The position numbers and the translations under genes are program-made. Positions 13,787 through 56,663 of a DNA stretch of 64,000 nt are shown one piece after another. The stretch spans positions 32,001-96,000 of IMG/VR virus record IMGVR_UViG_3300005077_000003; one strand, written 5' to 3'. The stretch is from a virus. The notes beneath the pieces were generated by a model. The model was not told the DNA's origin and did no database searches. It saw nothing but the letters and a program-made list of their open reading frames with translations. The stretch's first letter is position 1; every line of letters starts with the position of its first letter.

Positions 13787-14104
13787 TTACTCCTCTTTTT
13801 GATTCTCCTCGACGCTATTTCTTTGCTTGGCGGTTTCTACAAGTTCAACCAAAACATCCCCATGACAACTATTAGGTTTGCACCAGCAACCTAGTATTTT
13901 GCCTTCCAACTCATGCAAATCATTGAGTAGATGTTTACCATCTCCCTCAGTGATCCATGTTCTGTATGCTTCTATGGCATCTTCGCGCGTCCCTACTACG
14001 TACTGAGCTTTTGTACCAGGTTTATGACTAAATGGGTTACCCCATTTACTTGGTCTACCTATGTAGACATCATATTTGTCACATTTACAGTGTACTACCT
14101 TCAC
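13787..14104 (-). CDS. DUF4326 family protein
   Basis: DVYIGRPSKWGNPF and LGCWCKPNSCHGDVL motifs. Confidence 0.88.
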   Translation of the reverse strand: MKVVHCKCDKYDVYIGRPSKWGNPFSHKPGTKAQYVVGTREDAIEAYRTWITEGDGKHLLNDLHELEGKILGCWCKPNSCHGDVLVELVETAKQRNSVEENQKEE

Positions 14105-14268
14105 GACTTCTCCTAATCGCGCTTTTTGTGGTTTCCCAGGTTATTGTTTAGCTCCTCTTACTGTTGCCTGAACAGTGCCTCCATAGCACAGCTCTCACAA
14201 GCACAGCAGAATTATGAAACAAATATAAATGTACAATATATAAATATATTGTACATCTACATACCCGA

Positions 14269-14778
14269 CTATTCTATCTTCTTTGTGGTCAGCTTCTTAA
14301 GAAGCTTCATTCTCAACCCAATACCTGCGCAAAAGCCTTTACAGGCTATCACGTGACCTTTGGAATCCCTTACCGCCTCTCCTGGATAAATAAGGTCGTA
14401 CCTGTTTATTGTGGAAGGATGTTCTGCTACTAAAGCAGAAACGATAACCCAGGTTCCCGCCTCTTGTTTTGGAAGACCTTCAGGTTCTCCAAGTGTAGTC
14501 TCTACAACAGAGAAGTCTTCCAAGTAGCCCAAAGGCCTTCTTCTGGCCTCTAAACGGGGTGCTGCCCCGTTTGGTGGGTAGGTCCTACTATTACCATCAT
14601 TGTCAAGCACTATAATAGAATGTGGAGTAAAGTTCTTGAACGTGGGTCTGAAGACCGAATCTACCCATGCAATATGGGCGTCTTCATATTCTTTTGAATC
14701 CTCCCCATATTCCCTTATGAAGTAGTCGAGATCAATCGGAACTGCATTCACGAGGCCCAAATTACTTGAGTATTTCAT
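14269..14778 (-). CDS. conserved phage hypothetical protein (N-x-TPH family)
   Basis: FKNFTPHSI, GLPKQEAGTWVIVSALVA, DLIYPGEAVRDSKGHVIACKGF. Confidence 0.7.
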   Translation of the reverse strand: MKYSSNLGLVNAVPIDLDYFIREYGEDSKEYEDAHIAWVDSVFRPTFKNFTPHSIIVLDNDGNSRTYPPNGAAPRLEARRRPLGYLEDFSVVETTLGEPEGLPKQEAGTWVIVSALVAEHPSTINRYDLIYPGEAVRDSKGHVIACKGFCAGIGLRMKLLKKLTTKKIE

Positions 14779-15296
14779 GTTATCTTCTCCTAGAGTATCT
14801 AAAACCTATCTAAACCACTTCAAACACCCAAACACCTCATAACACCCAGCCCCCGGCTGTGTCCAGGCGAAAAGACCTTTTTCAAGGTTTTCGCCAAGGT
14901 GATTAGCAATACTAACACACTATATGTTGTGGTTTGATTTCAGCATACTATTAGAGGTAAAATTGGTATTCTACCCCTAGAGCAAACCTTCCATTTCGCT
15001 ATCAAGAAATAGGAAGTTGCATATTACAACAGGCCCCAAAAAGGGCCTGTTTTGTAAACTGACACCACTATATATAGTGTGTTCACCACCTATTACTGCT
15101 GGTTCGTGTTATAGGTTCTGCATGCTAACAACTCCGTTGTTAGGGAAGAGGATACAAAGAAAGGAGGGTTTTCCAACCCCCCCAAAGTATTAGCGCCGGA
15201 GCCTACTTTAGGTCCTAATACCGAAATATATTGAATTTCGGTACTACTACCTAATTTTTACACTTTTGCTCTCACCCTACAAGGGGAGAGGCCGGA

Positions 15297-15463
15297 GCCC
15301 GCCTTTTTTCTTTTCGCGGGCTCCTTTGTGTTGTCCCCGTCTCTCCTTGGCGGCTTTCGCCGCCTTTGTTCTTTTGTTTGCCCTTTGTTCGCCGCTGTCG
15401 CGGCTCTTTGTCGGGCTTTTGTCTGTTGGTTGGTTGTCGCTCGCCCCCTGTTGGGGGCTCGCT
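15297..15463 (-). ncRNA. U-free structured RNA segment with repeated ACAA(A) linkers
   Basis: 167 nt with no A on +; GC hairpins joined by ACAAA repeats; begins right after the TAG of a 34-aa ORF. Confidence 0.55.
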
Positions 15464-15566
15464 ATCCCGCACCTAGCCACAACATCACCTTAAAGGCGAT
15501 GATGGCCATGATCGTTGCTGCAACAATGAAGCGCAGCACGATCGCCGCGGCTTTCCGTGCTCGCAT
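15462..15566 (-). CDS. small membrane peptide (34 aa)
   Basis: MRARKAAAIVLRFIVAATIMAIIAFKVMLWLGAG; start 1 nt after the upstream stop. Confidence 0.6.
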   Translation of the reverse strand: MRARKAAAIVLRFIVAATIMAIIAFKVMLWLGAG

Positions 15567-15567
15567 G

Positions 15568-15795
15568 TTATACCTTCTTGTAGTTGTTGTCAACCCACCA
15601 CTTCCGGTAGGCTCTCAGGCTCCCTCCGTGTTTTGCTATGGCAGCCCTGCTTGGATCAACAGGGCACCAGAACGAGTGAAGTTGAGAGAGCGTCTCCGGC
15701 GGTCCACAGACCGGACACGCGAGACGGGGGTCCTTTCTCTCTAGAATGGGCCACATCAGGCCCCAATCCACAGTGATCACTTCATCCATTTTCAA
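15568..15795 (-). CDS. small hypothetical protein with CPVC motif
   Basis: 75 aa, AAGGAG RBS. Confidence 0.6.
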   Translation of the reverse strand: MKMDEVITVDWGLMWPILERKDPRLACPVCGPPETLSQLHSFWCPVDPSRAAIAKHGGSLRAYRKWWVDNNYKKV

Positions 15796-15853
15796 CTCCT
15801 TTCGGACGTAGCGAGGGCTACTGGCTCCTCTTCAGGCGCATACAACCACGTAT

Positions 15854-15881
15854 GCGCTAGGAGAGGAGGAGCCCTTGCGGG
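15854..15881. terminator. terminator-like hairpin
   Basis: aggaggagccc-ttgc-gggctcctcct perfect inverted repeat. Confidence 0.65.
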
Positions 15882-15896
15882 CTCCTCCTATGTTAA

Positions 15897-16109
15897 TCAG
15901 CGATCACCGAGGTAATCCCCGGTGAAGGCGTCGAACACAGCCACTCGCTGCTGGCCGTACTCGACAAACGTGACGATGGCCGCCCATCGCCACAACCCGT
16001 CCATGTCCTGGACTTTGTCCAGGTGCATGAACTTGCTCTCCGGCATCTTCCGGAGAGCCTCCTCTGCCACGCCGTCGGGGCACTCTCGCCCCAGGGCATC
16101 TTTCCTCAT
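15897..16109 (-). CDS. hypothetical protein
   Basis: 70 aa; directly follows a small upstream ORF. Confidence 0.6.
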   Translation of the reverse strand: MRKDALGRECPDGVAEEALRKMPESKFMHLDKVQDMDGLWRWAAIVTFVEYGQQRVAVFDAFTGDYLGDR

Positions 16110-16110
16110 T

Positions 16111-16245
16111 TCAGTCCACCATGTGGCGAATCGCCACGTAGAGGGTGAAGCCGACCCAGTACCCGAAGAGGAACCGGGCGTGCTTCATCCTGTAGACGAA
16201 CGTAAGGATTCCCAGCGGGAACCCTATCAAAATCCCTAGCAGCAT
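16111..16245 (-). CDS. small membrane protein (44 aa)
   Basis: MLLGILIGFPLGILTFVYRMKHARFLFGYWVGFTLYVAIRHMVD, GAGGAG RBS. Confidence 0.6.
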   Translation of the reverse strand: MLLGILIGFPLGILTFVYRMKHARFLFGYWVGFTLYVAIRHMVD

Positions 16246-16247
16246 TG

Positions 16248-16703
16248 CTACTCCTCGCGGGCATAGGCCCGCCTCAGGTTGTAGAGGGGATACCCCCTCC
16301 GGTTACGCGAGACCCGAGTGATCTCCTGATCACCGTGATGAACGGTGATCTTCTTTGGCTCCAGTTCGGCTCTGAAGCTCTTCGTGGAAGCGGCCTCAGC
16401 CGCGTCCATTCCTGGTTGCAGTGCAGCGGGGTCGATCCCCACCGCGTTGCAGAAGTGGAGTACGCGCGCGGCGTACCCCTGCTGGGCCTTCTCGAAGGCA
16501 TCACTAGTGACGCCCTCGAACTTCTTGGGTGCCGTCCACGAGACGTGGACGTACCTTCCCAGGACCCCTAGCGTTATGTAGACTGATGGTAAAGGACCCT
16601 CCCCGTAGACGCGCGCGTTCAGGAGGAACGCGGCGTAGACGCCGCGGGGGAGGATTTCGCCCTCAGAATGGGCGAACGAATCGCTCAGCATGTCGTATGA
16701 CAT
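16248..16703 (-). CDS. hypothetical protein, weak resemblance to DUF669/ssDNA-binding OB folds
   Basis: ILPRGVYAAFLLNARV..V.ITLGV pattern; AAGGA RBS. Confidence 0.55.
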   Translation of the reverse strand: MSYDMLSDSFAHSEGEILPRGVYAAFLLNARVYGEGPLPSVYITLGVLGRYVHVSWTAPKKFEGVTSDAFEKAQQGYAARVLHFCNAVGIDPAALQPGMDAAEAASTKSFRAELEPKKITVHHGDQEITRVSRNRRGYPLYNLRRAYAREE

Positions 16704-16738
16704 GAGCAGTCCTTGTGTACTATGTACACTTTAGTCCT

Positions 16739-16837
16739 GTGACTACGCGCCTGCACGAAATGTGCTTACACCCTCACCTCTAGCCGTAGTCGCGGAGGGC
16801 ATTGGAGGGGCACCCCCCCACAAGAGGATGCCCCTGT
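16739..16837 (-). repeat. structured intergenic module, copy 1
   Basis: Shares cctgcac-N4-tgtgcttac-N6-acctctag and ggcatt..gaggggcaccc..acaagaggatgcccctgt with 17163-17258. Confidence 0.85.
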
Positions 16838-16880
16838 TGCTATGGTGCTGCTGTACTTGCAGTAGCTCAGGACTTCGATT

Positions 16881-17126
16881 CTAGTTCTTCTTGTAGTAGT
16901 CGTCAGCCTCTTGACGACGCCATGTGGTCATGATCCCCGTATCCTGCAGGAAGGTCATCACCTTCCCAAGCATGCTTCCGAGGAAGCTGGTGAAGCTGAC
17001 CATGTAGTCCTTACAGGCCTTTATGTACTCAATCTCCACCTCCACATCCACCTTTTCCAGGGTGAACTCGGGGGTATTGGTCTCGGGGTTGACAGAGATG
17101 TTCATCTTTTCGATCTTGAAATGCAT
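16881..17126 (-). CDS. hypothetical protein
   Basis: MHFKIEKMNISVNPETN...; start chosen downstream of the repeat module. Confidence 0.65.
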   Translation of the reverse strand: MHFKIEKMNISVNPETNTPEFTLEKVDVEVEIEYIKACKDYMVSFTSFLGSMLGKVMTFLQDTGIMTTWRRQEADDYYKKN

Positions 17127-17162
17127 GTGAATCCCTTTGTGCACTAAGGCACTTAGTAAGTT

Positions 17163-17258
17163 GTGACTGTCCACCTGCACTATGTGTGCTTACGCCACTA
17201 CCTCTAGTGACAGTCATGAGTGGCATTGAGGGGCACCCTCACAAGAGGATGCCCCTGT
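17163..17258 (-). repeat. structured intergenic module, copy 2
   Basis: Imperfect direct repeat of 16739-16837 with compensatory changes in the outer stem. Confidence 0.85.
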
Positions 17259-17262
17259 AGTA

Positions 17263-17514
17263 CTAGTCCTTCTTCACTTTGGCCTCGTTCCAGGCCCTCT
17301 TGGTGTTGTCCATGGTCGCCTTGACAACGGGGGCCACGCGCTGGATGCCCTTGCACACCAGCTTGGTGAACTTGTAGGCACCGTTCTTGACCGACTCGCC
17401 GACCTTACTGGCCAGCTTCTGCCTCTCGCGCTCTTGGAAGCGCTGAAAGGCTTCACGGCACTGGTCACACCAGATACCGGTCTCGATCTCCTTGTCACAT
17501 CCCTGGCACTTCAT
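17263..17514 (-). CDS. small zinc-finger protein
   Basis: MKCQGC..CDQC, AAGGAG RBS. Confidence 0.7.
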   Translation of the reverse strand: MKCQGCDKEIETGIWCDQCREAFQRFQERERQKLASKVGESVKNGAYKFTKLVCKGIQRVAPVVKATMDNTKRAWNEAKVKKD

Positions 17515-17623
17515 GCGTTCTCCTTGGTGTGAACGCCCAGCTTCCACAGCTTTAGGGCGGTTTCAGCCTCTTCCCGGCTGCCAGCGCAAACTCCTCGCTG
17601 GCCTTTGTGCCGTTGTAGGCCAT

Positions 17624-17681
17624 TAAAAAAAGAGTAAATAAAAAAAATAGGGATCCCTACCGCGAAGGCAGGGATCCCTAT
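17624..17681 (-). terminator. terminator plus conserved T-tract, copy 1
   Basis: Minus strand tagggatccct..agggatcccta-T8-atttactc-T7; 30 nt identical to 18483-18512. Confidence 0.8.
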
Positions 17682-17696
17682 GTTACCTAGGCCAAA

Positions 17697-18017
17697 TTAG
17701 AAGGGCGACCGCGAACGCCTGCAGTTGCAGGGCCGCGGCTTTCCGTGCTCGCATGCCGGACAGTCCGGCGCATGGGCCTTGAGGGCCAGCCCCTCAAGCA
17801 TGGCGACGCCCATAATCGCTCCAGCCGCCCAGTGCTGGGCTGCCCCAAAGCTCCCGAGACGCCCAATATAGGGCGCTCTGGCCCAGCAACGGAGCCAGCG
17901 ATACGTCTTGCGGGGGTGTTCCCCGTGCTCCCGGCGATCTCTCAGGACCGCCTCCACCGCCGAACGGGCCAACCAGGCCTGCGGGCTGTTCCCTGCTGTA
18001 AAAGACTTCGTATCCAT
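17697..18017 (-). CDS. hypothetical protein with C-terminal Cys motif
   Basis: 106 aa, AGGAGG RBS, CPAC..CNC. Confidence 0.65.
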   Translation of the reverse strand: MDTKSFTAGNSPQAWLARSAVEAVLRDRREHGEHPRKTYRWLRCWARAPYIGRLGSFGAAQHWAAGAIMGVAMLEGLALKAHAPDCPACEHGKPRPCNCRRSRSPF

Positions 18018-18209
18018 AATGGCCTCCTATGGCTATGCGTGCTATGGCGCAGACTTGGTTACATATCCAGCCCTACCGCGTGGAGGTGTCTGCATAGGGC
18101 CATTGGGCACACCACAAGGCATGCCCAAGCATGACCTGAGGGCTACTGGATAGTGGCCCTCAGTCTAACCGCCTCCTCCTTGAGACGAGTAAGCTCGTCC
18201 ATTTGGGGG

Positions 18210-18425
18210 TCAAGCTGTTCCCTCATGGCTAGGTCCTACACCATGAAGGTCAGCAGGATTAGCGCTGCCATCACTAGCAGCACCACCGCCTCGTTCATGG
18301 TGTTTAGACGCCTGTACTCGCTCACCGAGTATCTCCTTGCACTCCTCTACGAGTGCGGCTATGGCCCTGTTTACTTCTTGCAGGGCCGCGATCTCCTCCT
18401 CCAACACGTGCATGTGTAGGCACAT
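18210..18425 (-). CDS. small hypothetical protein (coiled-coil N-terminus)
   Basis: GGAGG RBS before MCLHMHVLEEEIAALQ; C-terminal part overlaps alternative tiny ORFs. Confidence 0.45.
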   Translation of the reverse strand: MCLHMHVLEEEIAALQEVNRAIAALVEECKEILGERVQASKHHERGGGAASDGSANPADLHGVGPSHEGTA

Positions 18426-18482
18426 GCGAACCTCCATGTTGGGGGCCTTTGAGCACAGTAGCCGATGTGCCACTGTGCTCAA

Positions 18483-18539
18483 TAAAAAAAGAGTAAATAA
18501 AAAAAATAGGGACCCCTAGTGTATACTAAGGGTCCCTAT
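18483..18539 (-). terminator. terminator plus conserved T-tract, copy 2
   Basis: Minus strand tagggaccc..ggggtcccta-T8-atttactc-T7. Confidence 0.8.
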
Positions 18540-18552
18540 GTGGGGGCAGCTC

Positions 18553-18750
18553 TTAGTAGAGCTGCCTTACCAAGCCAAGAACCCGCTGGTCCTTGACTTC
18601 GCCTGCGGCCAGCTGCCTCCTGAGCAGCTCAACCCCCTTCCGGGCCCACTTGGGGTCCCGGAGGAGGTTCACTACAACCACGTTCCTCTCGTCCGAGGAC
18701 AGGAGGGTGATGATCTGGCCGATGGTGTGGAAGAACTTGGAACTACGCAT
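18553..18750 (-). CDS. hypothetical protein (first gene of the leftward arm)
   Basis: MRSSKFFHTIGQ..., AGGAGG RBS within a 17-nt leader shared with the 17697-18017 gene. Confidence 0.7.
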   Translation of the reverse strand: MRSSKFFHTIGQIITLLSSDERNVVVVNLLRDPKWARKGVELLRRQLAAGEVKDQRVLGLVRQLY

Positions 18751-18900
18751 TGTATTGCCTCCTATGGCTATGCTTTCCATGTACACATTACCTAGTGTAC
18801 GTGTGCCATCGTACAGGCACAGGCTATAGCACACACTGTGTGTACTATAGTGCAGGCAGTACTTATATAGCACCCTGCCCTTGGCGCTTAAGCATATTAG

Positions 18901-19160
18901 AAGGGGGGGGGTGGGCGTGAAATGGGGAGATCCATCTCACAAGAAGCCCAAGTAGTACTATCCCTACCAATTAAACTACTATTTTCCAGGTATTAAGGCC
19001 TCCATCTCTCTTAAATTACTTTTTATGGGTATTAAGGCAAAATTTATTGTTTAAAATAATAAGAGTGGTGGAAATTTATATATTAGTTGTAATTTTTAGG
19101 GCATTAAGCGTTTATACCGATATCTTTTTAGGTTGCCCGCCAGTTTTTAGGGTTAATTAG
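18901..19160. promoter_or_regulatory. divergence point: G-run plus iteron-like repeats (possible terminus/pac/origin)
   Basis: G9 run at 18903-18911; three GG(T/C)ATTAAG motifs and TTTTTAGG motifs; strand switch and abrupt GC drop. Confidence 0.45.
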
Positions 19161-19162
19161 CA

Positions 19163-19501
19163 ATGACAGAACAATCAATAAGTTATCTTCCATTTTATCC
19201 ATTTTCACAGACTAGTGATAGTACTTTTTATATAGATAGTACTAGTAATAATAATACATTTACTATTGATAGTACTAATCATATTACTAATATAGTTTGG
19301 GGTGAAATGACAGATACTAAATATAATACTTATAATAATAGCCAGGTTGCTATTAAGTTTAGTAGCCTAGAGGCTATTATAATAGCCGCCAAGTTTACTT
19401 TGTTTATGAATATTAATGATTTAATGGAGATACCATTAGATGATTTAGTAGCACTGTCAAAAGAAGTAATGGCGGATACTAGTTTGCATTTAAAGAAGTA
19501 A
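19163..19501 (+). CDS. hypothetical protein
   Basis: 112-aa ORF; start uncertain. Confidence 0.55.
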   Translation: MTEQSISYLPFYPFSQTSDSTFYIDSTSNNNTFTIDSTNHITNIVWGEMTDTKYNTYNNSQVAIKFSSLEAIIIAAKFTLFMNINDLMEIPLDDLVALSKEVMADTSLHLKK

Positions 19502-19542
19502 GCGGAAATACTACTAGTGTATAATTAGTCTGCCTGGTTATC

Positions 19543-19770
19543 ATGGATAATATTATATTTGCTAGTAGTATCATGGAAAATAACCTATCAACAACTGAGG
19601 TGTATGCTTATTTTACCTGTGACAAAGCTGGGTGCGGGAAACAAAATATTAGACTACTAAAGAAGTATAGAAGTACGGGTAGTGGTAATAGGCCTATTCT
19701 TAATAGCGATGACGTATGCGACTTTTGTGGTATGCCAATACATGAGCCAGCGTATATTGAAGTAAAATAA
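19543..19770 (+). CDS. small Zn-ribbon-like protein
   Basis: CDKAGC...CDFC. Confidence 0.6.
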   Translation: MDNIIFASSIMENNLSTTEVYAYFTCDKAGCGKQNIRLLKKYRSTGSGNRPILNSDDVCDFCGMPIHEPAYIEVK

Positions 19771-19775
19771 ATAAA

Positions 19776-20186
19776 ATGAGTGAAAACAAAGAATTGAATC
19801 AAGTAACCAGTGTATATCCAGTAATACCTGCATCAGTAGTCCCGGTACCAACTAAAAAGGTCGCCGACCTTGCTAATGGGGGGATGAGGAATAGAAAGTA
19901 TGCCGCGTATGTTTCGGCAGCAATTATAAGAGACTTGGTAGATCACCAAGATCCTGTTATTATACAAGGTGATCTACCTAAGATTCTTATTGATGGGGAT
20001 ACTTTACAAGAAGTAAAGGAAAGGATGTTCGAAGAACTTAGCGCGGTTTTCCAGAATGCACAAGACCTGGTAGATGGTAAGATTACCATGGAAGATCTTG
20101 ATAGACAGGCTACGGAACAGGCTAAGATATACGAGGACGCAGTTAGAGCAGAATTTGCTAAAAAAGATGGAACCGAAACTAACTAG
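19776..20186 (+). CDS. hypothetical protein
   Basis: 136 aa, co-oriented run. Confidence 0.75.
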   Translation: MSENKELNQVTSVYPVIPASVVPVPTKKVADLANGGMRNRKYAAYVSAAIIRDLVDHQDPVIIQGDLPKILIDGDTLQEVKERMFEELSAVFQNAQDLVDGKITMEDLDRQATEQAKIYEDAVRAEFAKKDGTETN

Positions 20187-48800: not shown

Positions 48801-51243
48801 GTCCAGCGGCACATTCTTACCAACGCCACAAAATTGGTTTGGTTTAAAAAATATAATTGATCCATATAAATTAGAAAGGGAAAACTACTACAGAAGGCCA
48901 TACCCTACTACTGCTGGCTGGGGAGAAGAGTTCCCAATTATTGGCCCATTAGTAGCAGATACAATAGGTGAGATATTTAAGCCTCGTGTAAGAATGCATG
49001 AGGAAGACAACCAACGTGTTGTAATAAGCAACTTACAACAAAGAGGTGCGCCAAAAGATATTGCATCATATCTCGGTATACCAGAATTGCCAGTATCAAT
49101 TGTAGAATATGGCAAACCTGAAGTATTAAGAGAAAGGCTTAAAAAATATGCAAATGTCGCTTTAGAGCCTGCTGGTATATGGAAGTTTGCTTTACAATAC
49201 TTTGGTATTAGTTTTGACGAAGGATATGAGGAAGCTACTGCTTCTAATATGGGATCCATATCAAGAAGATTCTATGAAGCAAACCTGGGCGGGGCATTCG
49301 GAGAAAGTGAATTCCTTAGGCGCTTCCTACTATCTGATTATGGTAGGGCTTCAAAGTTCAACCAACAATTAAATCCAATACCAAACTATCTTCCTAGATG
49401 GCTACCTGGATCATTAAGCAACTTCGAAGAAGACAGAGCTGCATTCTATGATTTTTCTCTTGGAGATGCATATACCAAGATACAAGGCGGGGAATATAAT
49501 TTACCTGGTGTTGGATATGAAAGCTATACTCCGCTACACGGTAAAGAAGCAGAAAGAGAAGAAGAGAAAATTAAATTTACTGCTAGAGTAGTTAAAGTAG
49601 TTGACGCTGATACTGTTGATATATCAATTAATGGCGGCAGACAGCGTATACGTCTAGCAGAAACTATGGCTCCAGAGAAGAATACGACAGAAGGTCAAAT
49701 TGCTATAGCAGCAATGAAATCTTTGTTGTCTCCTGGTGACAATATAACAGTAGAAACTACAAGAGACGAATTTGATTCTGGTGAATCTCAAGGCCCTTAC
49801 GGACGGACTATCGCGCGTATTTGGAAGAATGGCCTGTCTATTAATAGGGCAATGGTAGACTCTGGACACGCTACACAAATAGATTCAAGCTATGATGCAG
49901 TAGACAGATTCTTAATACTATCCAATATAGCACCATTCTCAAGAGCTTACAAAGATGCAGAACGCCAAGTTCGCCATATGCATCTTACAGAAGATTGGCA
50001 GGCCAGGGTTAATGCTGCCTATGAAGAAAGAGAGGCAAAAGTAGATAGGTTAGGGCTAAAAAAGTACCTACAAGAAGAAGCCGAAGCAGCTAAATTAAGT
50101 CCTCAACTAAGAGTCATAAGAAGTACATATCAATCTGTACATGAGAATCTACTTTCAGAAATACCAATAGTTGGATCAAAGTTTTTCCCAAAAAGAAATC
50201 CAGTTGATTTATATAGGAAGTTTGAAGTAGAAGGATCTGGCTTTGCAAACTGGGAAGAGCCATATGAAACCATATTACGCCCAGCTATATATGATATAAT
50301 TGGAAACAACCCAGTAATAGCTACAGCAAAAGCAGGTGGTTTAACTTGGCTAGCATCATCCTCTATGGGTAAATGGCTAAATCCAATAAGCGCCTTAGCA
50401 TATCCAGCAAATAGAGCTGCCACAATAGCAAGTGCCGCCGCAGTAGGTGGCGCGTTGTCAACTACAAGAATGGTTGCTACCGGCAAACTGGAAGGAGGAT
50501 TTACCCCGCCTCATATTGAAGAAGAGAGAGAAGTAGAAGAATATTTTGATCAACTAAAATATTTAAAGCATAGAAACTTAGAAGAAGCCGCTAATGATGA
50601 ACAGGCATACCATGTAGCAAACTATGCTAAAAAGCAATCGCGCAAAACATTGTTATATGGTCTACATGCACTAGAAACTAAAGGAAATATATTTGCTTAT
50701 AAAGGAGCACTTAAATCTAAAGAGAGGGCTTACTTTGAGGCCTTTGTAGAGGCTCCAGAAGAGGACAGGAGTGACATCCTATCAATGACCCCTGACCATA
50801 TGAAACGCGCGCTGGAAGCAATATGGGACCGCCAGCGTAAAGATAGACCGCCCGTAGAAGAACAGGCAGAACAATACTGGGATAAACATGCTATGCCAAA
50901 GCCGACGTGGATAGGTTGGCACCCAGATATTGATGATGATGAGGTAAGAATAAAAGCTATTGAGGGTGGCATAAATGGTATTTCTGATAATTTACAAAGA
51001 TTTGGTTATTTCCCCTCACAAAGAAGAGAAGTAAAAGCCAGATTTGGCTACCTTACTTCGCCAGTAGATGATATACATCCAGCAAGTAAAACATTTGAAT
51101 TACCATGGAAAGTTAAGAAGAGAGGAGGAAATATACTTAGCGAGTTCAATTTTGGTGCTGGCGCTGCAATTAATTTATCTAATATTAATATATCAGATGA
51201 TCGCAGTGAAGAGATAGCCTATTTTGCTAATTATATTAGATAA
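45874..51243 (+). CDS. tape-measure-like giant virion protein with embedded DEDDy exonuclease and SNase-like domains; one in-frame TAA at 47320-47322
   Basis: ORFs 45874-47322 and 47338-51243 are in the same frame; the stop falls inside the exonuclease domain and there is no SD before 47338. Confidence 0.75.
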
Positions 51244-54200
51244 TGAGTATAATAAATGAAATTATAGCATCCCTGATAGGTGATGAAGGGAAAGCTGCAA
51301 TAGGCTATGCTTCAGTAAGCACGAACAGGGTTAGACCTGCTCTAGACAAAGTAGGCATAGAGGCATCTCTTGGCAGTACCAGAGTAAAGTCTATTAGGGC
51401 AAAACAGTACTTGACTACTGATTTTGGTGAGTCTAGAACAGCGTCTACTTTAGTAAAACAGATTGGCATTAAAATGCCAGAGACGCTTACTTCTGTTATT
51501 GGGAAAACAACAGAAGAAAATATACCAAAAGCTCTGTTTGTATACGACGTAGAATTCTTTAAGAGAGCTGCTCTACAAACTGGCGCTAGGCCAAAAAGTG
51601 GTATGGCGCATCTTATAGATGTAAAGCAATTAGTTTTACAAACACTTCCAGAGCTTGCTCCCCAAAACACAAGGATTGAGAACGTATATAGGGCACTGGG
51701 GTTAAGGGGCATAAGCATCCCCGAAGGTAGGGAATTTTTTACAAATAAAGAACGCCTTCAAGCAGTAGAAGAAATAGTACAAGAGGTTTTTTCAAGATCT
51801 CCTGTAGAAGCAAAAAGATTTTTAGAAAGATCTGTCGGACGCCGCTTTGGGATAAATCCACTTGATAAGTATGCCTCATTAATTGATGAGCACCCTTTAC
51901 AAAAGCTTATTGGCCCGGAAACGCTTAACGTAATCCCAGTTAAGAATAAGCTAAAGTCAACTGTACATGTAAGCAACCTAAAATCTCTTAATGAGGGATT
52001 AGTACCGATATTAGAATCTAGGTTTGGGAAACCATTTGCGGAAACATTCAAAACCTTTTCGCATAGATTATTTGAAAGCGTTGACCGCCCAGGAGACGTA
52101 TCCTTCTTACTAACAGGCGGCAATAGACTATTTGTTGGTGTTACTGGTGTAGCCAGTACATACGAAGAGCTTCCTACCCAAATAGGCGGCCTTATAGGCT
52201 ATAAAGGCAAACTGGCTTCTGCGCGCAATATTCTTATAGAGTCAAAAGAAGAAGGCGTTAAAGGAGTAAAAACACTAACAGAAGCTTTCTTTGATGAATT
52301 CATTAAGGGCGTAGAAGAGTATGGAGAAGGTGGTAAGAACGTTACCGCCGCCTTAGAAAAAGGTAGAAAACAAGCTCTTGGTACAGAGCTTTTACCAGGC
52401 TTAAGATTCAAAGATATCAAGGGAGCAGTATCCACATATGGCGATATAAGTTTCCATCAAGCTGCATATATGCAGCACTCTCTTGTAGTTGGCAAAGAGT
52501 CTATGCCACTGCTAGATGAGGAGATTAGGGAAGCTTCACTTAAGGCACAAACATTCCAGGTTACTAAGGAAAGTACTACAGAAAGACTATTAAAAGCACA
52601 AGAAGCAGATCTCGCTAAGCTTGAAGCCAAAGGTATAGAACTCCAAAAAATAACTGGAAGTGATGTTACCATAGGCAAAGAAGGGTATGAAATGATAAGC
52701 AATAAAACAGGCTTATCATTAGCCCCATACTCTTCAATAAGATCATATTTCCCTCCTGGTGCACAAACAGAAAGAGATCTATCAAAGGGAGCCTATCAAC
52801 TAGGTGGTATCAAGGAGACGTGGGAGCCACTAAGACATAGAGTTTTAGAACTTACCAGAAGAAGGCTAGGTCTCACAAGTGCACATCCAGTAGGTACTAC
52901 AATAGGAGTAGTGTCCGAAGAGCAGACTATGCACCAAATGCTTAAGTCTGCTACTGGGAAAGCTGTGATCGAAAAGCCGCTACTTATGTGGCAAGGCTTA
53001 ACCACAGTAGTAGCTCCAGGAGAAAGCCTAAAAGTAAGGAGCATGCTTGGTGATCAAGGTGCTATACTTACTCCTATAGGAAGATTATCTACTCAGAAAA
53101 GAAGAGCACTAGTAGGTACTGAAGCCGCGCTCAATGCGAGCGATTTAATAGATACTATTCGCACCCTTGCTGGGGTAAGAAAAGGAGAAGAATTACCTAA
53201 ACAGTGGAGCAATATATTAGAAAAAGCTCTACAGCAACAAGAGGTCTCTATTAGAGATATTGGCGAAGGTATAAAAATAAAAGGGAAAAGCTCTCTTGTT
53301 CCAAGGGGTGCAGAAGTACTTACTGGCATCTCATATGACGACTGGAATAAAGTATATAAATTTAATTGGAAGACCAAAGCAGGTAGCACATTAACAGAAG
53401 CCTTATTACTAGACAATCAAAGAATAACAGCTAGCGTAGCTGGTGAGTCTTTTCTAGAAGAGCTATTCGGAACTAAAGCCCTAAGAAGTGATATAATCAC
53501 TTCTTCTGAAACCTTTGCAAAAGCAGGTAAAGCCAATATACTTTATACACATATGCTTGGTCTGCTTGGCACCGAAAAGCTACAAAAAGCTGGTGGTGTA
53601 GCAAGGTTCTTAAGGTTATATGAAAAGCATGGCGGTAAGGGATTAGAAAGGGTAGGCAGAAAACAGCAGATCATAGCGACTTCTGAATTTTCATTTAAAA
53701 ACTTCCTTAGCCAAGGTGCTATAGAAGGGCCTGCTGAAAAAGCTCTATCTGAAATGGGCGCATCAGTAGCGCAAATATATGGACTTGCTAAAAGCTCTAC
53801 AGAGTATGGGGAGAGTATATATGAACTTTTCCCGCAAGCTATTAAGCCTGGTCCTAAAGGACCAGAAGTAAAAGGCACTATTTTAGATGAAATAGGAGCA
53901 AAAACTCTTCCTACTTTAGAGGAGCTTAGAGAGGTATCTATGAAAAGCAATATGTTTGCTTTCATAACCAATATGGCAAATAGAACCTCTGAAGTAACTG
54001 ACTTCTTAAATTCTGAAAAGTCATTTAGAATGAGACTCTTTACTTTGCATCAAATGGGTCAATCTCTACCAACTATGTTTGGCCTAGAAAATCCAATGCA
54101 ACATCCTATATATAGGATGGAAATAGAACATCTACAAGAAAGTGTGCCGGGATTAATCTTGAATCCTAACGCCAAAGCAGCTATTGGGAAACCAGGAGGA

Positions 54201-56663
54201 GAAGCTTTCGTAAAACAATTACCAAGAGACATTAAAAATGTGGCATATGCACTCAAATTACCTGCTCTTGAAAAGCTGAAAGTACGTGGCGGCAAAAAAT
54301 ATTTTAAAGGTGTAGAGGTATTAACAAGACAAGAGGCCGCAGAAAGATTCATAAATGCTCCTGGCGGTATAAATGTACAAATGTTAGAAGGAGAAATGAG
54401 TGCCAAAGAGCTTTTTGAAAAAGAGCTCTTAAGAAAGGAAAGACCCGGGTTCTTCCTTCATACTGGAGATACGCCATGGTTTGCGCCAGAAAACCTCGAA
54501 GCAGAAGGCAAAGTTATGAAGGCCTTGCCAGTTAGGGGTACATATATACCGTCTGGTGAAGAACTAAGAAGAATGATAGGACAAGGGGAATTTCCAAGAG
54601 GATCTCTGCTGCATTCTATGGTATCATTGCTACAGCAACCTAATGCAGTATATGGAGCCAAAGAACCTAGCGCAGCAACTAGTGTTACAGTAAGAGGTGC
54701 ATTTGAAAATGTATGGAGGTGGTGGGCTAAAGCTGGAGCAAAAGGCGGCTATTTCCATGAAACTAAGCTTACTAGCAAAAAAATGCCTGGCTCTGCCAGG
54801 GTCAGGCTAACACAGAAAATAGCAAGTAATCGTTCAGAGTTTAATCTTATAAACTCTATGGAGGACATTTATTCCGTTAAAATACAGAAAGATACTCTCC
54901 ATAAAATGGCAAAAGAAATTGCAATAGCTGAGGGTGCAAAAACTCCAGAAGAATTACTTGCAATAGAGGAAGACCTTATTGAAAAAGCATCAAAAGGAAA
55001 ACTATATGGCGCAGTTACGCCAAGACCTCAACATGCTCCATCACATCAAAGGCTGGTAAAATTACAACTTATAAAAGAAGAGGTTACAAAGAAATTAATA
55101 TATGCTGATCAGGCTACTGCAGGAGTTAGTCCATACTTGGCACACGAACTAAGTAGAGACTTTGACAAGGACGCAATAGAAGTTGCAATAATAAGAGCTA
55201 GGCATCTCAAAGGAACTGTCGACCCAGAAGAACTTATAAAGAAGCAGTATGAGATGTCTGCATCACAAAGGAAGCAGTTTGATAGACTAAAAATAGAAGC
55301 AGATAAAGCTCTTTCCACTATAGAAGAAACATTGGAAGGGGCAACAAAAATAGAACAAAAACAGCTGCTAAATAAATATGCGCTAAAGTACTTTGCATTT
55401 GGTAGGACCCCGGCCCTATCACAAGTAGGCTCTTGGACAACCCTTGCATTTGCTCAAAAGATAGCTGATACGGCTACTAGTGAAAAACAAATTGCTGAAG
55501 AGCTAAATAGATTGTTTACAATTTCTGCTGGCGGTGAATATACAGAAGGAATCATACAAAGATATAGAGATATTTTAGGAGAAGGGTCCGAAGCTGGATT
55601 TGCTGGTAGAGTAGAGCGCGCCATAGAAATGTATAGAACTCCATTCCAAGGCGCTCTTACAAAAGCAGGAGAGATTAAAGACTTGCTTGATGATTTCCTA
55701 AATATTCCCGGCATTATTAAAGAAAGAGCAGAATCTTATGTAGTTGGTAAGGAAAAACCATTAATAGAAGAAACCATAAGTATGGTTGAAGAATATCTAA
55801 CTAAAGCCCTTGGAGCTACAGATGAGGAAGTTCTTGGAAATATAGCCACAGGATATGGAGAATACTACGTAAGAGAGGCAGCAAAATCAGCAACTAGTGG
55901 AGTCAAGAAAGCCATCACCAGATTAGCGGCAGAAGATCTTGGCACCGTTATAGGCGTTTCTGCTATTGCAATGCAGAGACATCACGGCGGGAGAGTAATA
56001 GGTAACCCAATGAGAGACGCTTTCCAAAAAGTAAAAGGATCAATGGCGTCTCTGTGGTCGTTTGTTACTGGTGAACCAGTTCAAAATATTAGAGAGTCCA
56101 TGGTAGAAATTGCTATGGAACATAGCGATAGATCTGCTGAAGAACTTGGCGAAAAAGCTGCCAAGGTCATGGAAAAGACCATAGACAAAGCAACCACTAA
56201 AGCCAGCAATATTCTGAAAGATTCAGAAGTACTAAATGATATCTCTGCGAAGATGAAAGGTAAGTGGGGATTAGTTGCTGGTATAGCTGCCGGGCTATTT
56301 GTTTTGCGAGAGTTAAGCGGAATAGTTTCTGATGTTGGCGGGTTTGCCGGCGGTAGTGCTCCTATCCCAAGACAGCCACTGCTGTCATTCCCAGAAGTGC
56401 ATAATTTATTCGATAGCCAACAACCTACTGCCAACGTAATGCCGGTTGAAGGATATAACTCTTCACTAAACTATCAAGGTGGTGGCTATCAAGATGTTGA
56501 AGATATCACAGATAATCTAGGTGAAATCACAAATAGAGGTGCCAACTTCTCTAATATAAATATCAGAGATAGCAGAAAATACTCTAGTAATTTTGCTATG
56601 TCACAAGCATACAAGAAACAGGGTGTTAGTGATTTTACACACCAATATCAATATAATCAGTAA
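51243..56663 (+). CDS. 1806-aa giant virion protein, candidate single-chain two-barrel RNA polymerase
   Basis: KGGYFHETKLTSKKMPGSARVRL and GVSPYLAHELSRDFDKDAIEV resemble beta-prime motifs; upstream beta-like segments. Confidence 0.65.
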   Translation: MSIINEIIASLIGDEGKAAIGYASVSTNRVRPALDKVGIEASLGSTRVKSIRAKQYLTTDFGESRTASTLVKQIGIKMPETLTSVIGKTTEENIPKALFVYDVEFFKRAALQTGARPKSGMAHLIDVKQLVLQTLPELAPQNTRIENVYRALGLRGISIPEGREFFTNKERLQAVEEIVQEVFSRSPVEAKRFLERSVGRRFGINPLDKYASLIDEHPLQKLIGPETLNVIPVKNKLKSTVHVSNLKSLNEGLVPILESRFGKPFAETFKTFSHRLFESVDRPGDVSFLLTGGNRLFVGVTGVASTYEELPTQIGGLIGYKGKLASARNILIESKEEGVKGVKTLTEAFFDEFIKGVEEYGEGGKNVTAALEKGRKQALGTELLPGLRFKDIKGAVSTYGDISFHQAAYMQHSLVVGKESMPLLDEEIREASLKAQTFQVTKESTTERLLKAQEADLAKLEAKGIELQKITGSDVTIGKEGYEMISNKTGLSLAPYSSIRSYFPPGAQTERDLSKGAYQLGGIKETWEPLRHRVLELTRRRLGLTSAHPVGTTIGVVSEEQTMHQMLKSATGKAVIEKPLLMWQGLTTVVAPGESLKVRSMLGDQGAILTPIGRLSTQKRRALVGTEAALNASDLIDTIRTLAGVRKGEELPKQWSNILEKALQQQEVSIRDIGEGIKIKGKSSLVPRGAEVLTGISYDDWNKVYKFNWKTKAGSTLTEALLLDNQRITASVAGESFLEELFGTKALRSDIITSSETFAKAGKANILYTHMLGLLGTEKLQKAGGVARFLRLYEKHGGKGLERVGRKQQIIATSEFSFKNFLSQGAIEGPAEKALSEMGASVAQIYGLAKSSTEYGESIYELFPQAIKPGPKGPEVKGTILDEIGAKTLPTLEELREVSMKSNMFAFITNMANRTSEVTDFLNSEKSFRMRLFTLHQMGQSLPTMFGLENPMQHPIYRMEIEHLQESVPGLILNPNAKAAIGKPGGEAFVKQLPRDIKNVAYALKLPALEKLKVRGGKKYFKGVEVLTRQEAAERFINAPGGINVQMLEGEMSAKELFEKELLRKERPGFFLHTGDTPWFAPENLEAEGKVMKALPVRGTYIPSGEELRRMIGQGEFPRGSLLHSMVSLLQQPNAVYGAKEPSAATSVTVRGAFENVWRWWAKAGAKGGYFHETKLTSKKMPGSARVRLTQKIASNRSEFNLINSMEDIYSVKIQKDTLHKMAKEIAIAEGAKTPEELLAIEEDLIEKASKGKLYGAVTPRPQHAPSHQRLVKLQLIKEEVTKKLIYADQATAGVSPYLAHELSRDFDKDAIEVAIIRARHLKGTVDPEELIKKQYEMSASQRKQFDRLKIEADKALSTIEETLEGATKIEQKQLLNKYALKYFAFGRTPALSQVGSWTTLAFAQKIADTATSEKQIAEELNRLFTISAGGEYTEGIIQRYRDILGEGSEAGFAGRVERAIEMYRTPFQGALTKAGEIKDLLDDFLNIPGIIKERAESYVVGKEKPLIEETISMVEEYLTKALGATDEEVLGNIATGYGEYYVREAAKSATSGVKKAITRLAAEDLGTVIGVSAIAMQRHHGGRVIGNPMRDAFQKVKGSMASLWSFVTGEPVQNIRESMVEIAMEHSDRSAEELGEKAAKVMEKTIDKATTKASNILKDSEVLNDISAKMKGKWGLVAGIAAGLFVLRELSGIVSDVGGFAGGSAPIPRQPLLSFPEVHNLFDSQQPTANVMPVEGYNSSLNYQGGGYQDVEDITDNLGEITNRGANFSNINIRDSRKYSSNFAMSQAYKKQGVSDFTHQYQYNQ

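What the first reader, a model, noticed from the sequence alone, without database searches (positions are those of the whole stretch)
16739..17258. Duplicated intergenic motif with a covarying stem around an invariant core
Seen: the outer stem differs in sequence but stays paired (gactac/gtagtc in copy 1; tgactgtc/gacagtca in copy 2). It encloses a conserved 37-39-nt core, minus strand CTAGAGGT-N6-GTAAGCACA-N4-GTGCAGG, with a GCAC/GTGC inner hairpin of variable loop. Each copy follows a conserved aggggcatcctc-ttgt hairpin with no U-tract and precedes a gene start. Inference: a novel cis-acting RNA motif (ribozyme, processing or translation element) or an ssDNA hairpin promoter for a phage polymerase.
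Basis: partly seen in the sequence, partly recalled or inferred. Interest (0 to 1): 0.72.

Follow-up and report, generated by a model that had tools for sequence, protein, structure and literature searches.

The report
Pseudoknotted RNA cassette between phage genes
Two gaps between small genes of an uncultured 178-kb phage carry the same folded RNA module: a strongly conserved hairpin followed by a pseudoknot whose two stems stay paired through six compensating double changes. The module matches no catalogued RNA family and probably marks, shields or cuts the border between messages, but its job is untested.

Summary
Both copies lie on the sense (minus) strand inside a 3.6-kb, 55-60% GC island of orphan genes in a 36% GC phage.

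Each gap reads as follows:
- stop codon;
- hairpin P0 (12-13 bp, no U-tract);
- a 62-nt pseudoknot;
- small hairpin P5;
- ribosome-binding site and start codon.

Together they show 6 double compensatory changes and 100% pairing, which no column shuffle matched.

The strand order equals that of HDV-like ribozymes. However, the P3/L3/P1.1 core is missing and copy 2 has no cytosine in J4/2. No Rfam family matches.

No further copy turned up in the genome, IMG/VR or the metagenome and genome collections. One 2.7-kb metagenomic relative keeps P0 and P5 almost unchanged, although its neighbouring proteins are only about 25-45% identical. Its middle part folds differently.

Best reading: a portable intercistronic RNA boundary or leader cassette. 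Self-cleavage, protein binding or switching remain open. An ssDNA hairpin promoter is disfavoured.

Other reports of this scan describe similar portable structured leaders on other DNA, but not this motif.

The parts
17229..17256 (-). Copy 2, hairpin P0: AGGGGCAUCCUC-UUGU-GAGGGUGCCCCU. 12 bp including 1 G.U. It starts 6 nt after the stop codon of the 83-aa zinc-ribbon gene (stop at 17265-17263). No U-tract follows.
17165..17226 (-). Copy 2, pseudoknot. P1 is 17226-17219 with 17199-17192. P2 is 17215-17209 with 17171-17165. The junction ACUAGAGGU is 17208-17200 and AA is 17191-17190. Hairpin P4 (GCAC-ACAUA-GUGC) is 17189-17177. Linker AGGUG is 17176-17172.
17127..17164 (-). Copy 2, leader 3' part: hairpin P5 (GUGC...GCAC, 17152-17139), Shine-Dalgarno-like AAGGGA (17137-17132), then the ATG at 17126 of the 81-aa orphan gene (16881-17126).
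16806..16835 (-). Copy 1, hairpin P0: 13 bp including 3 G.U, loop UGUG. It starts 45 nt after the stop codon of the 81-aa gene. No U-tract follows.
16741..16802 (-). Copy 1, pseudoknot. P1 is 16802-16795 with 16775-16768. P2 is 16791-16785 with 16747-16741. The junction GCUAGAGGU is 16784-16776 and AA is 16767-16766. Hairpin P4 (GCAC-AUUUC-GUGC) is 16765-16753. Linker AGGCG is 16752-16748.
16704..16740 (-). Copy 1, leader 3' part: hairpin P5 (GUGUAC-AUA-GUACAC, 16729-16715), Shine-Dalgarno-like AAGGA (16714-16710), then the ATG at 16703 of the 151-aa gene (16248-16703). That gene's predicted fold resembles DUF669.

Best explanation
The two copies are a portable intercistronic RNA cassette of the phage's GC-rich orphan-gene operon, and it acts in cis on the sense transcript.

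Layout, 5' to 3':
- P0, a very stable hairpin placed after the upstream stop codon. It has no U-tract, and its sequence (not only its pairing) is conserved.
- An H-type pseudoknot of 62 nt. P1 (8 bp) and P2 (7 bp) interleave. Between them lie a conserved 9-nt junction ending in CUAGAGGU, an embedded 4-bp hairpin P4, and an AGGYG linker.
- A small hairpin P5 that abuts the ribosome-binding site, 37-38 nt before the start codon.

Proposed working: the cassette is a boundary module. P0 ends or shields the 3' side of the upstream message. The pseudoknot plus P5 give the downstream cistron a compact, nuclease-resistant 5' leader with an exposed ribosome-binding site. The orphan genes it flanks are therefore expressed and stabilised as separate units, and can be swapped at the cassette.

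Shown: the repeats, the helices, their covariation, their strand, and their place between genes.

Inferred: co-transcription of the flanking genes, any cut between P0 and P1, and the effects on stability and translation.
For: Structure:
- All 19 pairs form in both copies, with 6 double compensatory changes.
- 0 of 3000 column shuffles reach the observed two-helix covariation.
- Each helix is worth -8 to -11 kcal/mol.
- G.U pairs in P0 and P1 fit only the minus-strand reading.

Place:
- Both copies fill a gap from stop codon to start codon between minus-strand genes.
- Neither gap holds a sigma-70-like promoter or a U-tract terminator. The nearest U-tract terminators are at 17681-17647 upstream and 15183-15162 downstream.

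Portability:
- The flanking genes are not paralogues.
- In the one relative found (L042), one cassette precedes the homologue of the 151-aa gene, and the genes between differ.

Constraint:
- L042 keeps P0 with 1 substitution and 1 insertion over 34 nt, and keeps P5 plus the ribosome-binding site.
- Its proteins are 45% (zinc-ribbon gene) and about 25-32% (151-aa gene) identical.
- By contrast, another hairpin of the same operon (GCAA loop, near 15890) changes its stem letters between the two loci.

Precedents:
- PeSL regulatory cassettes flank ORFans in T4-type phages (PMC2839356).
- Hammerhead ribozymes flank genes in phage polycistronic RNAs (PMC3088659).
Against: - Only two sequences carry the pseudoknot, so covariation rests on a single comparison.
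- The relative L042 has a differently folded middle part: stem GCUAGU/ACUAGC plus hairpin CCAGG/CCUGG. The pseudoknot may therefore be dispensable for the cassette's job.
- Nested minimum-free-energy folds of the 66-nt core alone are not better than shuffles (z -0.3 and -1.0).
- RNAalifold finds a competing local hairpin that uses the 5' arm of P2, with 3 one-sided consistent changes. The fold may therefore alternate.
- There are no transcript ends, no expression data, and no cultured phage or host.
- The conserved single-stranded letters and the letter-for-letter conservation of P0 suggest specific recognition or chemistry, which is more than a passive shield needs.
Confidence: 0.45

Rival explanations
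1. It is a self-cleaving ribozyme of an undescribed class. The pseudoknot cuts the polycistronic RNA, most plausibly just 5' of P1. This leaves P0 as the protective 3' hairpin of the upstream message.
For: - The strand order P1-5', P2-5', junction, P1-3', hairpin, linker, P2-3' equals that of the HDV ribozyme fold (PMC4836649).
- It is a compact fold of about 62 nt with conserved unpaired purines (CUAGAGGU, AA, AGG).
- Two copies lie 424 nt apart between phage genes, as with intercistronic hammerheads (PMC3088659).
- A stable hairpin sits 3-4 nt upstream of P1 (the unpaired CAA or CCAA).
Against: - No Rfam ribozyme model matches, even at E up to 10.
- Only 9 nt lie where HDV needs P3, L3 and the P1.1 strand.
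- The loose HDV descriptor gives no fold that both copies share while keeping the covarying pairs.
- Linker J4/2 is AGGCG in copy 1 but AGGUG in copy 2, so there is no conserved cytosine.
- The relative L042 lacks the core.
- The motif is absent from the large collections, unlike known ribozyme classes.
Confidence: 0.15
2. It is a translational or stability operator bound by a phage protein. Candidates are the conserved 83-aa zinc-ribbon protein encoded just upstream, or the DUF669-like (SSB-like) product of the 151-aa gene, in the manner of T4 gp32 on its own leader pseudoknot.
For: - P0 is conserved in its letters, not only in its pairing, across a relative whose proteins are 25-45% identical. 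This is typical of sequence-specific recognition.
- The zinc-ribbon gene co-occurs with the cassette in both loci.
- The Atlas model of the 151-aa protein resembles DUF669 clusters (TM 0.57-0.64). DUF669 is linked to the phage N4 SSB (PMC4889955).
- T4 gp32 represses its own mRNA through a 5' pseudoknot (PMC535899).
- The pseudoknot ends 37-38 nt before the start codon.
Against: - Copy 2 precedes an unrelated 81-aa gene.
- The stretch between pseudoknot and start is folded (P5) and lacks the UUAAA/UAAA repeats of the gp32 operator.
- The DUF669 likeness rests on predicted structures only. Pfam gives no hit.
- The ribosome-binding site is not sequestered in any conserved helix.
Confidence: 0.15
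3. It is a conformational switch, either riboswitch-like or a co-transcriptional folding switch. The 5' arm of P2 alternates between the pseudoknot and a local hairpin with UAG of the conserved junction.
For: - Both alternatives are possible in both copies.
- P2 shows 3 double changes. The local extension of P1 shows 3 one-sided changes that all keep pairing.
- The minimum-free-energy fold picks P1 in copy 1 and P2 in copy 2.
Against: - No conserved alternative pairing reaches the ribosome-binding site or a terminator, so no expression platform is visible.
- No riboswitch family matches.
- A ligand sensor confined to one phage island would be unusual.
Confidence: 0.07
4. It is a DNA-level element: a promoter for the phage's own RNA polymerase (hairpin or double-stranded), or merely a recombination patch at which genes are shuffled, with no RNA function.
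For: - Per an earlier report that was not re-tested here, the phage encodes a virion-type two-barrel RNA polymerase at 51243-56663.
- The repeats flank an orphan gene as PeSLs do.
- Gene content between the zinc-ribbon gene and the 151-aa gene differs from L042.
Against: - Interleaved covarying helices and strand-specific G.U pairs are not explained by duplex DNA recognition.
- Template-strand hairpins would carry A.C mismatches.
- Copy 1 has 2 extra bases in one arm of P0. This shifts the half-sites of a palindromic operator but only lengthens an RNA stem.
- There are only two copies in 178 kb.
- P23-45-type virion polymerases use AT-rich promoters (PMC10770324).
Confidence: 0.08
5. It is a neutral remnant of a duplication, or a short coding leader. 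An AUG in CAAUGCC opens 19- and 65-codon frames.
For: The gapless alignment keeps one frame open from the shared AUG, with 11 of 19 residues identical.
Against: - The differences concentrate in paired columns and are compensated.
- Only 3 of 11 differing codons are synonymous.
- The frame stops after 19 codons in copy 1 and overlaps the 81-aa gene out of frame in copy 2.
- There is no free ribosome-binding site, because the nearest GAGGG is inside P0.
- L042 has AAGGC in place of the AUG.
- The flanking genes are not paralogues.
Confidence: 0.04

Closest known systems
HDV-like self-cleaving ribozymes (nested double pseudoknot; PMC4836649)
   Same: Same 5'-to-3' order of strands: P1, linker, P2, inner segment, P1', hairpin P4, linker J4/2, P2'. 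P1 starts 3-4 nt after an upstream hairpin. The size is similar, about 62 nt.
   Different: - The inner segment is 9 nt, too short for a 3-bp P3 plus L3 plus the P1.1 strand.
- There is no conserved cytosine in J4/2 (AGGCG versus AGGUG).
- There is a G.U pair at the base of P1 only under one register, and only in copy 1.
- No Rfam HDV-type model matches.
- Cleavage is untested.
PeSL mobile regulatory cassettes of T4-type phages (Arbiol et al. 2010, PMC2839356)
   Same: Conserved intergenic repeats of about 100-135 nt that run from stop codon to start codon. They contain a GGGG...CCCC stem-loop, flank orphan genes in a plastic region, and mark differences in gene content between relatives.
   Different: - No sigma-70-like promoter is present.
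- The stem-loop has no U-tract.
- The bulk of the cassette is a covarying RNA pseudoknot.
- There are two copies here, against about 50 per genome for PeSLs.
Intercistronic hammerhead (and twister or pistol) ribozymes of phage operons (Perreault et al. 2011, PMC3088659; PMC4604425)
   Same: A small pseudoknotted RNA repeated between short genes of a phage transcription unit, with the identity of the flanked genes not constant.
   Different: The catalytic cores of those families are absent, and no Rfam match appears at E up to 10.
Phage T4/RB69 gene 32 translational operator (PMC535899)
   Same: An H-type pseudoknot at the 5' end of a leader. It ends about 40 nt before the start of a gene for a possibly SSB-like protein.
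   Different: - The T4 pseudoknot is about 28 nt, and it is followed by an unstructured tract with UUAAA/UAAA repeats.
- Here the pseudoknot is 62 nt with an embedded hairpin, the tract is folded, and a second copy precedes an unrelated gene.
RNase III processing sites of the coliphage T7 early region (own knowledge)
   Same: Repeated intercistronic structured elements with conserved letters. They cut and stabilise individual messages.
   Different: T7 sites are single irregular hairpins of about 20 bp or more. Here the helices are 7-8 bp and interleaved. Only P0 stacked on P1 would approach that length.

Membership tests
HDV-like ribozyme | Nested double-pseudoknot strand order: P1 and P2 interleaved, with P4 between P1-3' and P2-3' | tested here: met
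   P1 is columns 9-16 with 36-43. P2 is columns 20-26 with 64-70. P4 is columns 46-49 with 55-58. All are paired in both copies.
HDV-like ribozyme | Internal P3 hairpin with loop L3 that forms P1.1 with the bases 3' of P1 | tested here: not met
   Only 9 nt (R-CUAGAGGU) lie between P2-5' and P1-3'. The descriptor search finds different, mutually inconsistent solutions in the two copies and none in L042. The HDV control is found.
HDV-like ribozyme | Catalytic cytosine in J4/2 | tested here: not met
   J4/2 reads AGGCG in copy 1 and AGGUG in copy 2.
HDV-like ribozyme | Match to the Rfam HDV-type covariance models | tested here: not met
   cmscan of 14800-19200, both strands, at E up to 10: no ribozyme family is listed.
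HDV-like ribozyme | Self-cleavage immediately 5' of P1 | not testable with these tools
   Needs in-vitro transcription and a cleavage assay.
Any Rfam family (hammerhead, twister, pistol, hatchet, preQ1-II, SAM-II and others) | Covariance-model match | tested here: not met
   There are 7 sub-threshold chance matches in the island, and none lies on the motif.
PeSL-type mobile regulatory cassette | Conserved intergenic repeat with a G-run/C-run stem-loop that flanks orphan genes | tested here: met
   The two copies flank the 81-aa orphan gene. P0 reads AGGGGCA...UGCCCCU.
PeSL-type mobile regulatory cassette | Strong sigma-70-like early promoter inside the cassette | tested here: not met
   No promoter-like site was found in 16704-16880 or 17127-17262. 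A promoter of another type is not excluded.
PeSL-type mobile regulatory cassette | Gene shuffling at the cassettes between related genomes | tested here: inconclusive
   L042 has the order zinc-ribbon gene, a different 89-aa gene, one cassette, then the homologue of the 151-aa gene. This window has zinc-ribbon gene, cassette, 81-aa gene, cassette, 151-aa gene. Only one relative is available, and homology of the 81-aa gene is not supported.
Intrinsic (rho-independent) terminator | GC-rich hairpin followed by a U-tract | tested here: not met
   P0 is followed by C(C)AAUGCC. The scan lists the two U-tract terminators of the island but not P0.
N4-type hairpin promoter for a virion RNA polymerase | Short (5-7 bp) hairpin with a 3-nt loop, formed on the template strand (own knowledge) | tested here: not met
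   P0 has 12-13 bp and a 4-nt loop. Its 1-3 G.U pairs become A.C mismatches on the template strand.
T4 gene 32-type operator | Pseudoknot followed by an unstructured tract of more than 40 nt with UUAAA/UAAA repeats, upstream of an SSB gene | tested here: not met
   The 37-38-nt tract contains hairpin P5 and at most one UAAA. The SSB-like nature of the 151-aa protein is a lead only.

The most novel reading that the evidence does not exclude
The 62-nt pseudoknot is a new class of self-cleaving ribozyme. It uses the HDV-type double-pseudoknot strand order but has a different, purine-rich active site (CUAGAGGU / AA / AGG) with no P3-L3 and no catalytic cytosine. It would cut the operon RNA just after the P0 hairpin.
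Probability: 0.13. Interest if true: 0.85.

Novelty: new variant of a known kind. Interest (0 to 1): 0.5.

Why it matters
Structured RNA modules between phage genes are known in a few forms: RNase III sites, PeSL cassettes, and hammerhead, twister and pistol ribozymes. What they do for the phage is still largely unproven.

This cassette adds an uncatalogued pseudoknot with clean covariation. It also adds a hairpin whose letters are far better conserved than the proteins around it. Both sit in an unusual GC-rich orphan-gene island of a phage that appears to bring its own RNA polymerase.

If the RNA cuts itself or binds a phage protein, it would be a new small ribozyme or operator class and a compact part for insulating genes in synthetic operons. 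If it is only a passive boundary, it is one more example of a portable leader.

The evidence base (two copies plus one partial relative) limits how far it can be generalised.

Tried and rejected
Searches for more copies:
- A regex with up to 3 mismatches and covariance model R1 on the whole genome found only the two copies.
- Exact and relaxed patterns in IMG/VR, in metagenome contigs and in genome contigs gave only chance hits. They lay in coding DNA, or lacked the flanking CT/AGG and P1/P2 complementarity.
- R1 found nothing on five contigs of portal relatives or on L042.
- blastn of 14000-20000 against GenBank phages gave nothing relevant.

Relatives through proteins:
- The 151-aa and 81-aa proteins, and the L042 190-aa protein, have no word-based homologues.
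- The flanking 169-aa and 494-aa genes have no close IMG/VR relatives.
- The zinc-ribbon alignment found no IMG/VR locus.

Other checks:
- No tRNA or tmRNA is present.
- The HDV-like fold is rejected as membership.
- The RNase III site reading is rejected because the helices are too short.
- The stop-codon readthrough signal is rejected because the read-through frame ends after 8 codons in copy 2.
- The mini-ORF reading (a GUG shortly before the conserved UAA, after GAGGU) is rejected because the spacing is inconsistent.
- Homology of the 81-aa gene to the first ORF of L042 is not supported by BLASTP. The two leaders are only weakly alike (4 of 500 shuffles).

Full report
**Setting.** The window is bases 32001-96000 of a single 177,611-nt IMG/VR phage contig, 92% complete by CheckV. 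The genome has 36% GC. The finding lies in a sharply bounded island at about 15250-18920, with 55-60% GC. The island holds small minus-strand genes that have no family assignment. A second GC-rich stretch lies 1-3 kb left of the window. A portal relative, contig G003, also joins 35% GC DNA to a 55-61% GC arm. Such arms therefore seem to be a trait of the lineage.

**The observation.** On the minus strand both gaps read: stop codon, hairpin P0, conserved core, start codon.
- Self-blastn gives 76% identity over 100 nt.
- The genes on either side (83, 81 and 151 aa) are not paralogues, so this is not a duplicated gene-plus-spacer unit.

**The fold.** From CAAUGCC to AGUCACA the two copies align without gaps: 68 columns, 47 identical. 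Enumerating all helices that can form in both copies gives two long ones.
- P1 is AUGCCCUC/GAGGGUGU in copy 1 and AUGCCACU/AGUGGCGU in copy 2. It has 8 bp, with 3 pairs changed on both sides and 1 changed on one side.
- P2 is GACUACG/CGUAGUC in copy 1 and GACUGUC/GACAGUC in copy 2. It has 7 bp, with 3 pairs changed on both sides.

The strands interleave in the order P1-5', P2-5', P1-3', P2-3', so the fold is a pseudoknot. The invariant hairpin P4 (GCAC-N5-GUGC) lies in its last loop.

Thirteen of the 21 differing columns lie in P1 or P2, and all of them are compensated.
- No column shuffle out of 3000 gave two such helices.
- The count of structure pairs gives 100% pairing and 6 double changes, against 0 for every slid control.
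- The helices are worth about -9 to -11 kcal/mol (P1) and -8 to -9 kcal/mol (P2).
- A nested-only folding program picks P1 in copy 1 and P2 in copy 2. This is what a pseudoknot would produce. It also explains why the core's nested energy is no better than that of shuffles.
- RNAalifold adds a local hairpin inside P1 that competes with P2 for the letters CUA/CUG. It has three one-sided, pairing-preserving changes. A two-state fold therefore cannot be excluded.

**Strand and molecule.** P0 has 1 G.U pair in copy 2, 3 in copy 1 and 2 in L042. P1 has 1-2. All become A.C mismatches on the other strand. The variable positions of P0 are transitions that keep pairing only in the sense reading. Interleaved helices plus sense-only wobble pairs argue for RNA, and against a template-strand DNA hairpin promoter.

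**Searches for relatives.** Rfam gives nothing on the motif at E up to 10, and there is no tRNA. A covariance model built on the two copies finds only them in the genome. It finds nothing in five contigs of portal relatives or in L042. Four pattern scans of IMG/VR, one of metagenome contigs and one of genome contigs gave only chance matches.

The only lead came from the 83-aa zinc-ribbon protein, which has two homologues among 1.8 billion representatives. One lies on L042, a 2,658-nt JGI contig of 52% GC. L042 carries the zinc-ribbon gene (45% identity), an unrelated 89-aa gene, a 132-nt gap, and then a homologue of the 151-aa gene (tblastn E 2e-18, about 25-32% identity).

That gap keeps P0 with one substitution and one inserted base over 34 nt. 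It also keeps P5 plus AAGGACU. Its middle part lacks CUAGAGGU and folds as an outer stem GCUAGU/ACUAGC around the hairpin CCAGG/CCUGG. A neighbouring hairpin of the operon (GCAA loop) changed its stem letters between the two loci. P0 is therefore constrained in sequence, not only in shape. The pseudoknot is either specific to this phage's two copies or has been remodelled in L042.

**Interpretation.** The shown facts are as follows.
- The module is repeated and lies on the sense strand.
- It is structured, and it spans the gap from stop codon to start codon.
- It flanks an orphan gene.
- Its ends (P0, and P5 with the ribosome-binding site) are inherited across a deep divergence.
- It holds no sigma-70-like promoter and no U-tract terminator.

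This fits best a portable intercistronic boundary or leader cassette. It is analogous in role to PeSL cassettes and to the ribozyme-flanked genes of phage operons. In this reading P0 guards the upstream 3' end, and the pseudoknot plus P5 form a compact 5' leader. I put this at 0.45.

The letter-level conservation of P0 and the conserved unpaired purines leave room for two further readings:
- a specific protein partner (0.15). The candidates are the co-occurring zinc-ribbon protein, or the 151-aa protein, whose Atlas model resembles DUF669, a family linked to the N4 SSB (compare T4 gp32);
- self-cleavage (0.15).

The HDV comparison is instructive. The strand order is identical (for the definition). 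But the P3/L3/P1.1 core and the J4/2 cytosine are not there, so this is not a member of that family. Smaller shares go to a switch (0.07), a DNA-level element (0.08), and a neutral or coding remnant (0.04).

**Earlier notes of this scan.** Notes on this genome supplied context: a two-barrel RNA polymerase gene at 51243-56663, a GC gradient, and a U-free hairpin array at the operon's end. Notes on other genomes pointed me to the PeSL and hammerhead papers, which I read. Similar 'portable structured leader' modules have been reported by the scan on other DNA, but not this sequence.

Noticed in passing
window 15250-18920; also genome 29000-31200 (1-3 kb left of the window); L028/L029 (contig G003): Sharply bounded islands of 55-60% GC hold orphan genes in a 36% GC phage. 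A portal relative likewise has a 55-61% GC arm joined to 35% GC DNA, and that arm holds a homologue of the 169-aa gene 14269-14778.
   Followed up: partly
window 17681-17607 and 18539-18466 (minus strand): This is a second duplicated cassette, 87% identical over 54 nt. It is a 15-bp U-tract terminator (AUAGGGAYCC...) followed by the AT-rich TTATTTACTCTTTTTTTA and another hairpin, and it has only two copies in the genome. P23-45's tape-measure-fused virion RNA polymerase uses AT-rich promoters, so this AT-rich block could be a promoter of the phage's own enzyme. This is a lead only.
   Followed up: partly
window 16248-16703 (minus strand): The 151-aa gene behind copy 1 has no sequence family. 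Its Atlas model resembles DUF669 clusters (TM 0.57-0.64). DUF669 has been linked to the phage N4 single-strand-binding protein.
   Followed up: partly
window 17263-17514 (minus strand); L042 344-598: An 83-aa protein with CxxC-x9-CxxC and a conserved KGIQ...KAWNEAK tail belongs to a tiny family of 3 members among 1.8 billion representatives. It is always found in this kind of operon.
   Followed up: partly
window 15895-15790 (minus strand); L042 1690-1785: The gap before the 73-aa gene holds a GCAA-tetraloop hairpin, then a second hairpin, then cgaaaggagt. L042 keeps the layout but with different stem letters (AGGAGGAGCCC versus GGGGGCGCCCC), that is, covariation.
   Followed up: no
window 15544-15567 and 17732-17755: A 24-nt exact repeat (ATGCGAGCACGGAAAGCCGCGGC with one flanking base) is shared by the 3' part of the 106-aa gene and the start of the 34-aa membrane ORF. 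It may be a recombination scar.
   Followed up: no
window 18860-18826 (minus strand): The leader of the first island gene holds an 11-bp hairpin, CUAUAG-U-ACACAC...GUGUG-CUAUAG, preceded by GCCUGCACUAUAG. That letter run recalls the -7 to +1 part of T7-type promoters (from memory). It also contains CCUGCAC, the complement of the motif's GUGCAGG.
   Followed up: no
L029 1284-1303, 1597-1616, 3294-3317, 7987-8010: The relative's GC-rich arm repeats a different short leader, CTTTCCCTTAAGGAGGG, in front of several genes.
   Followed up: no
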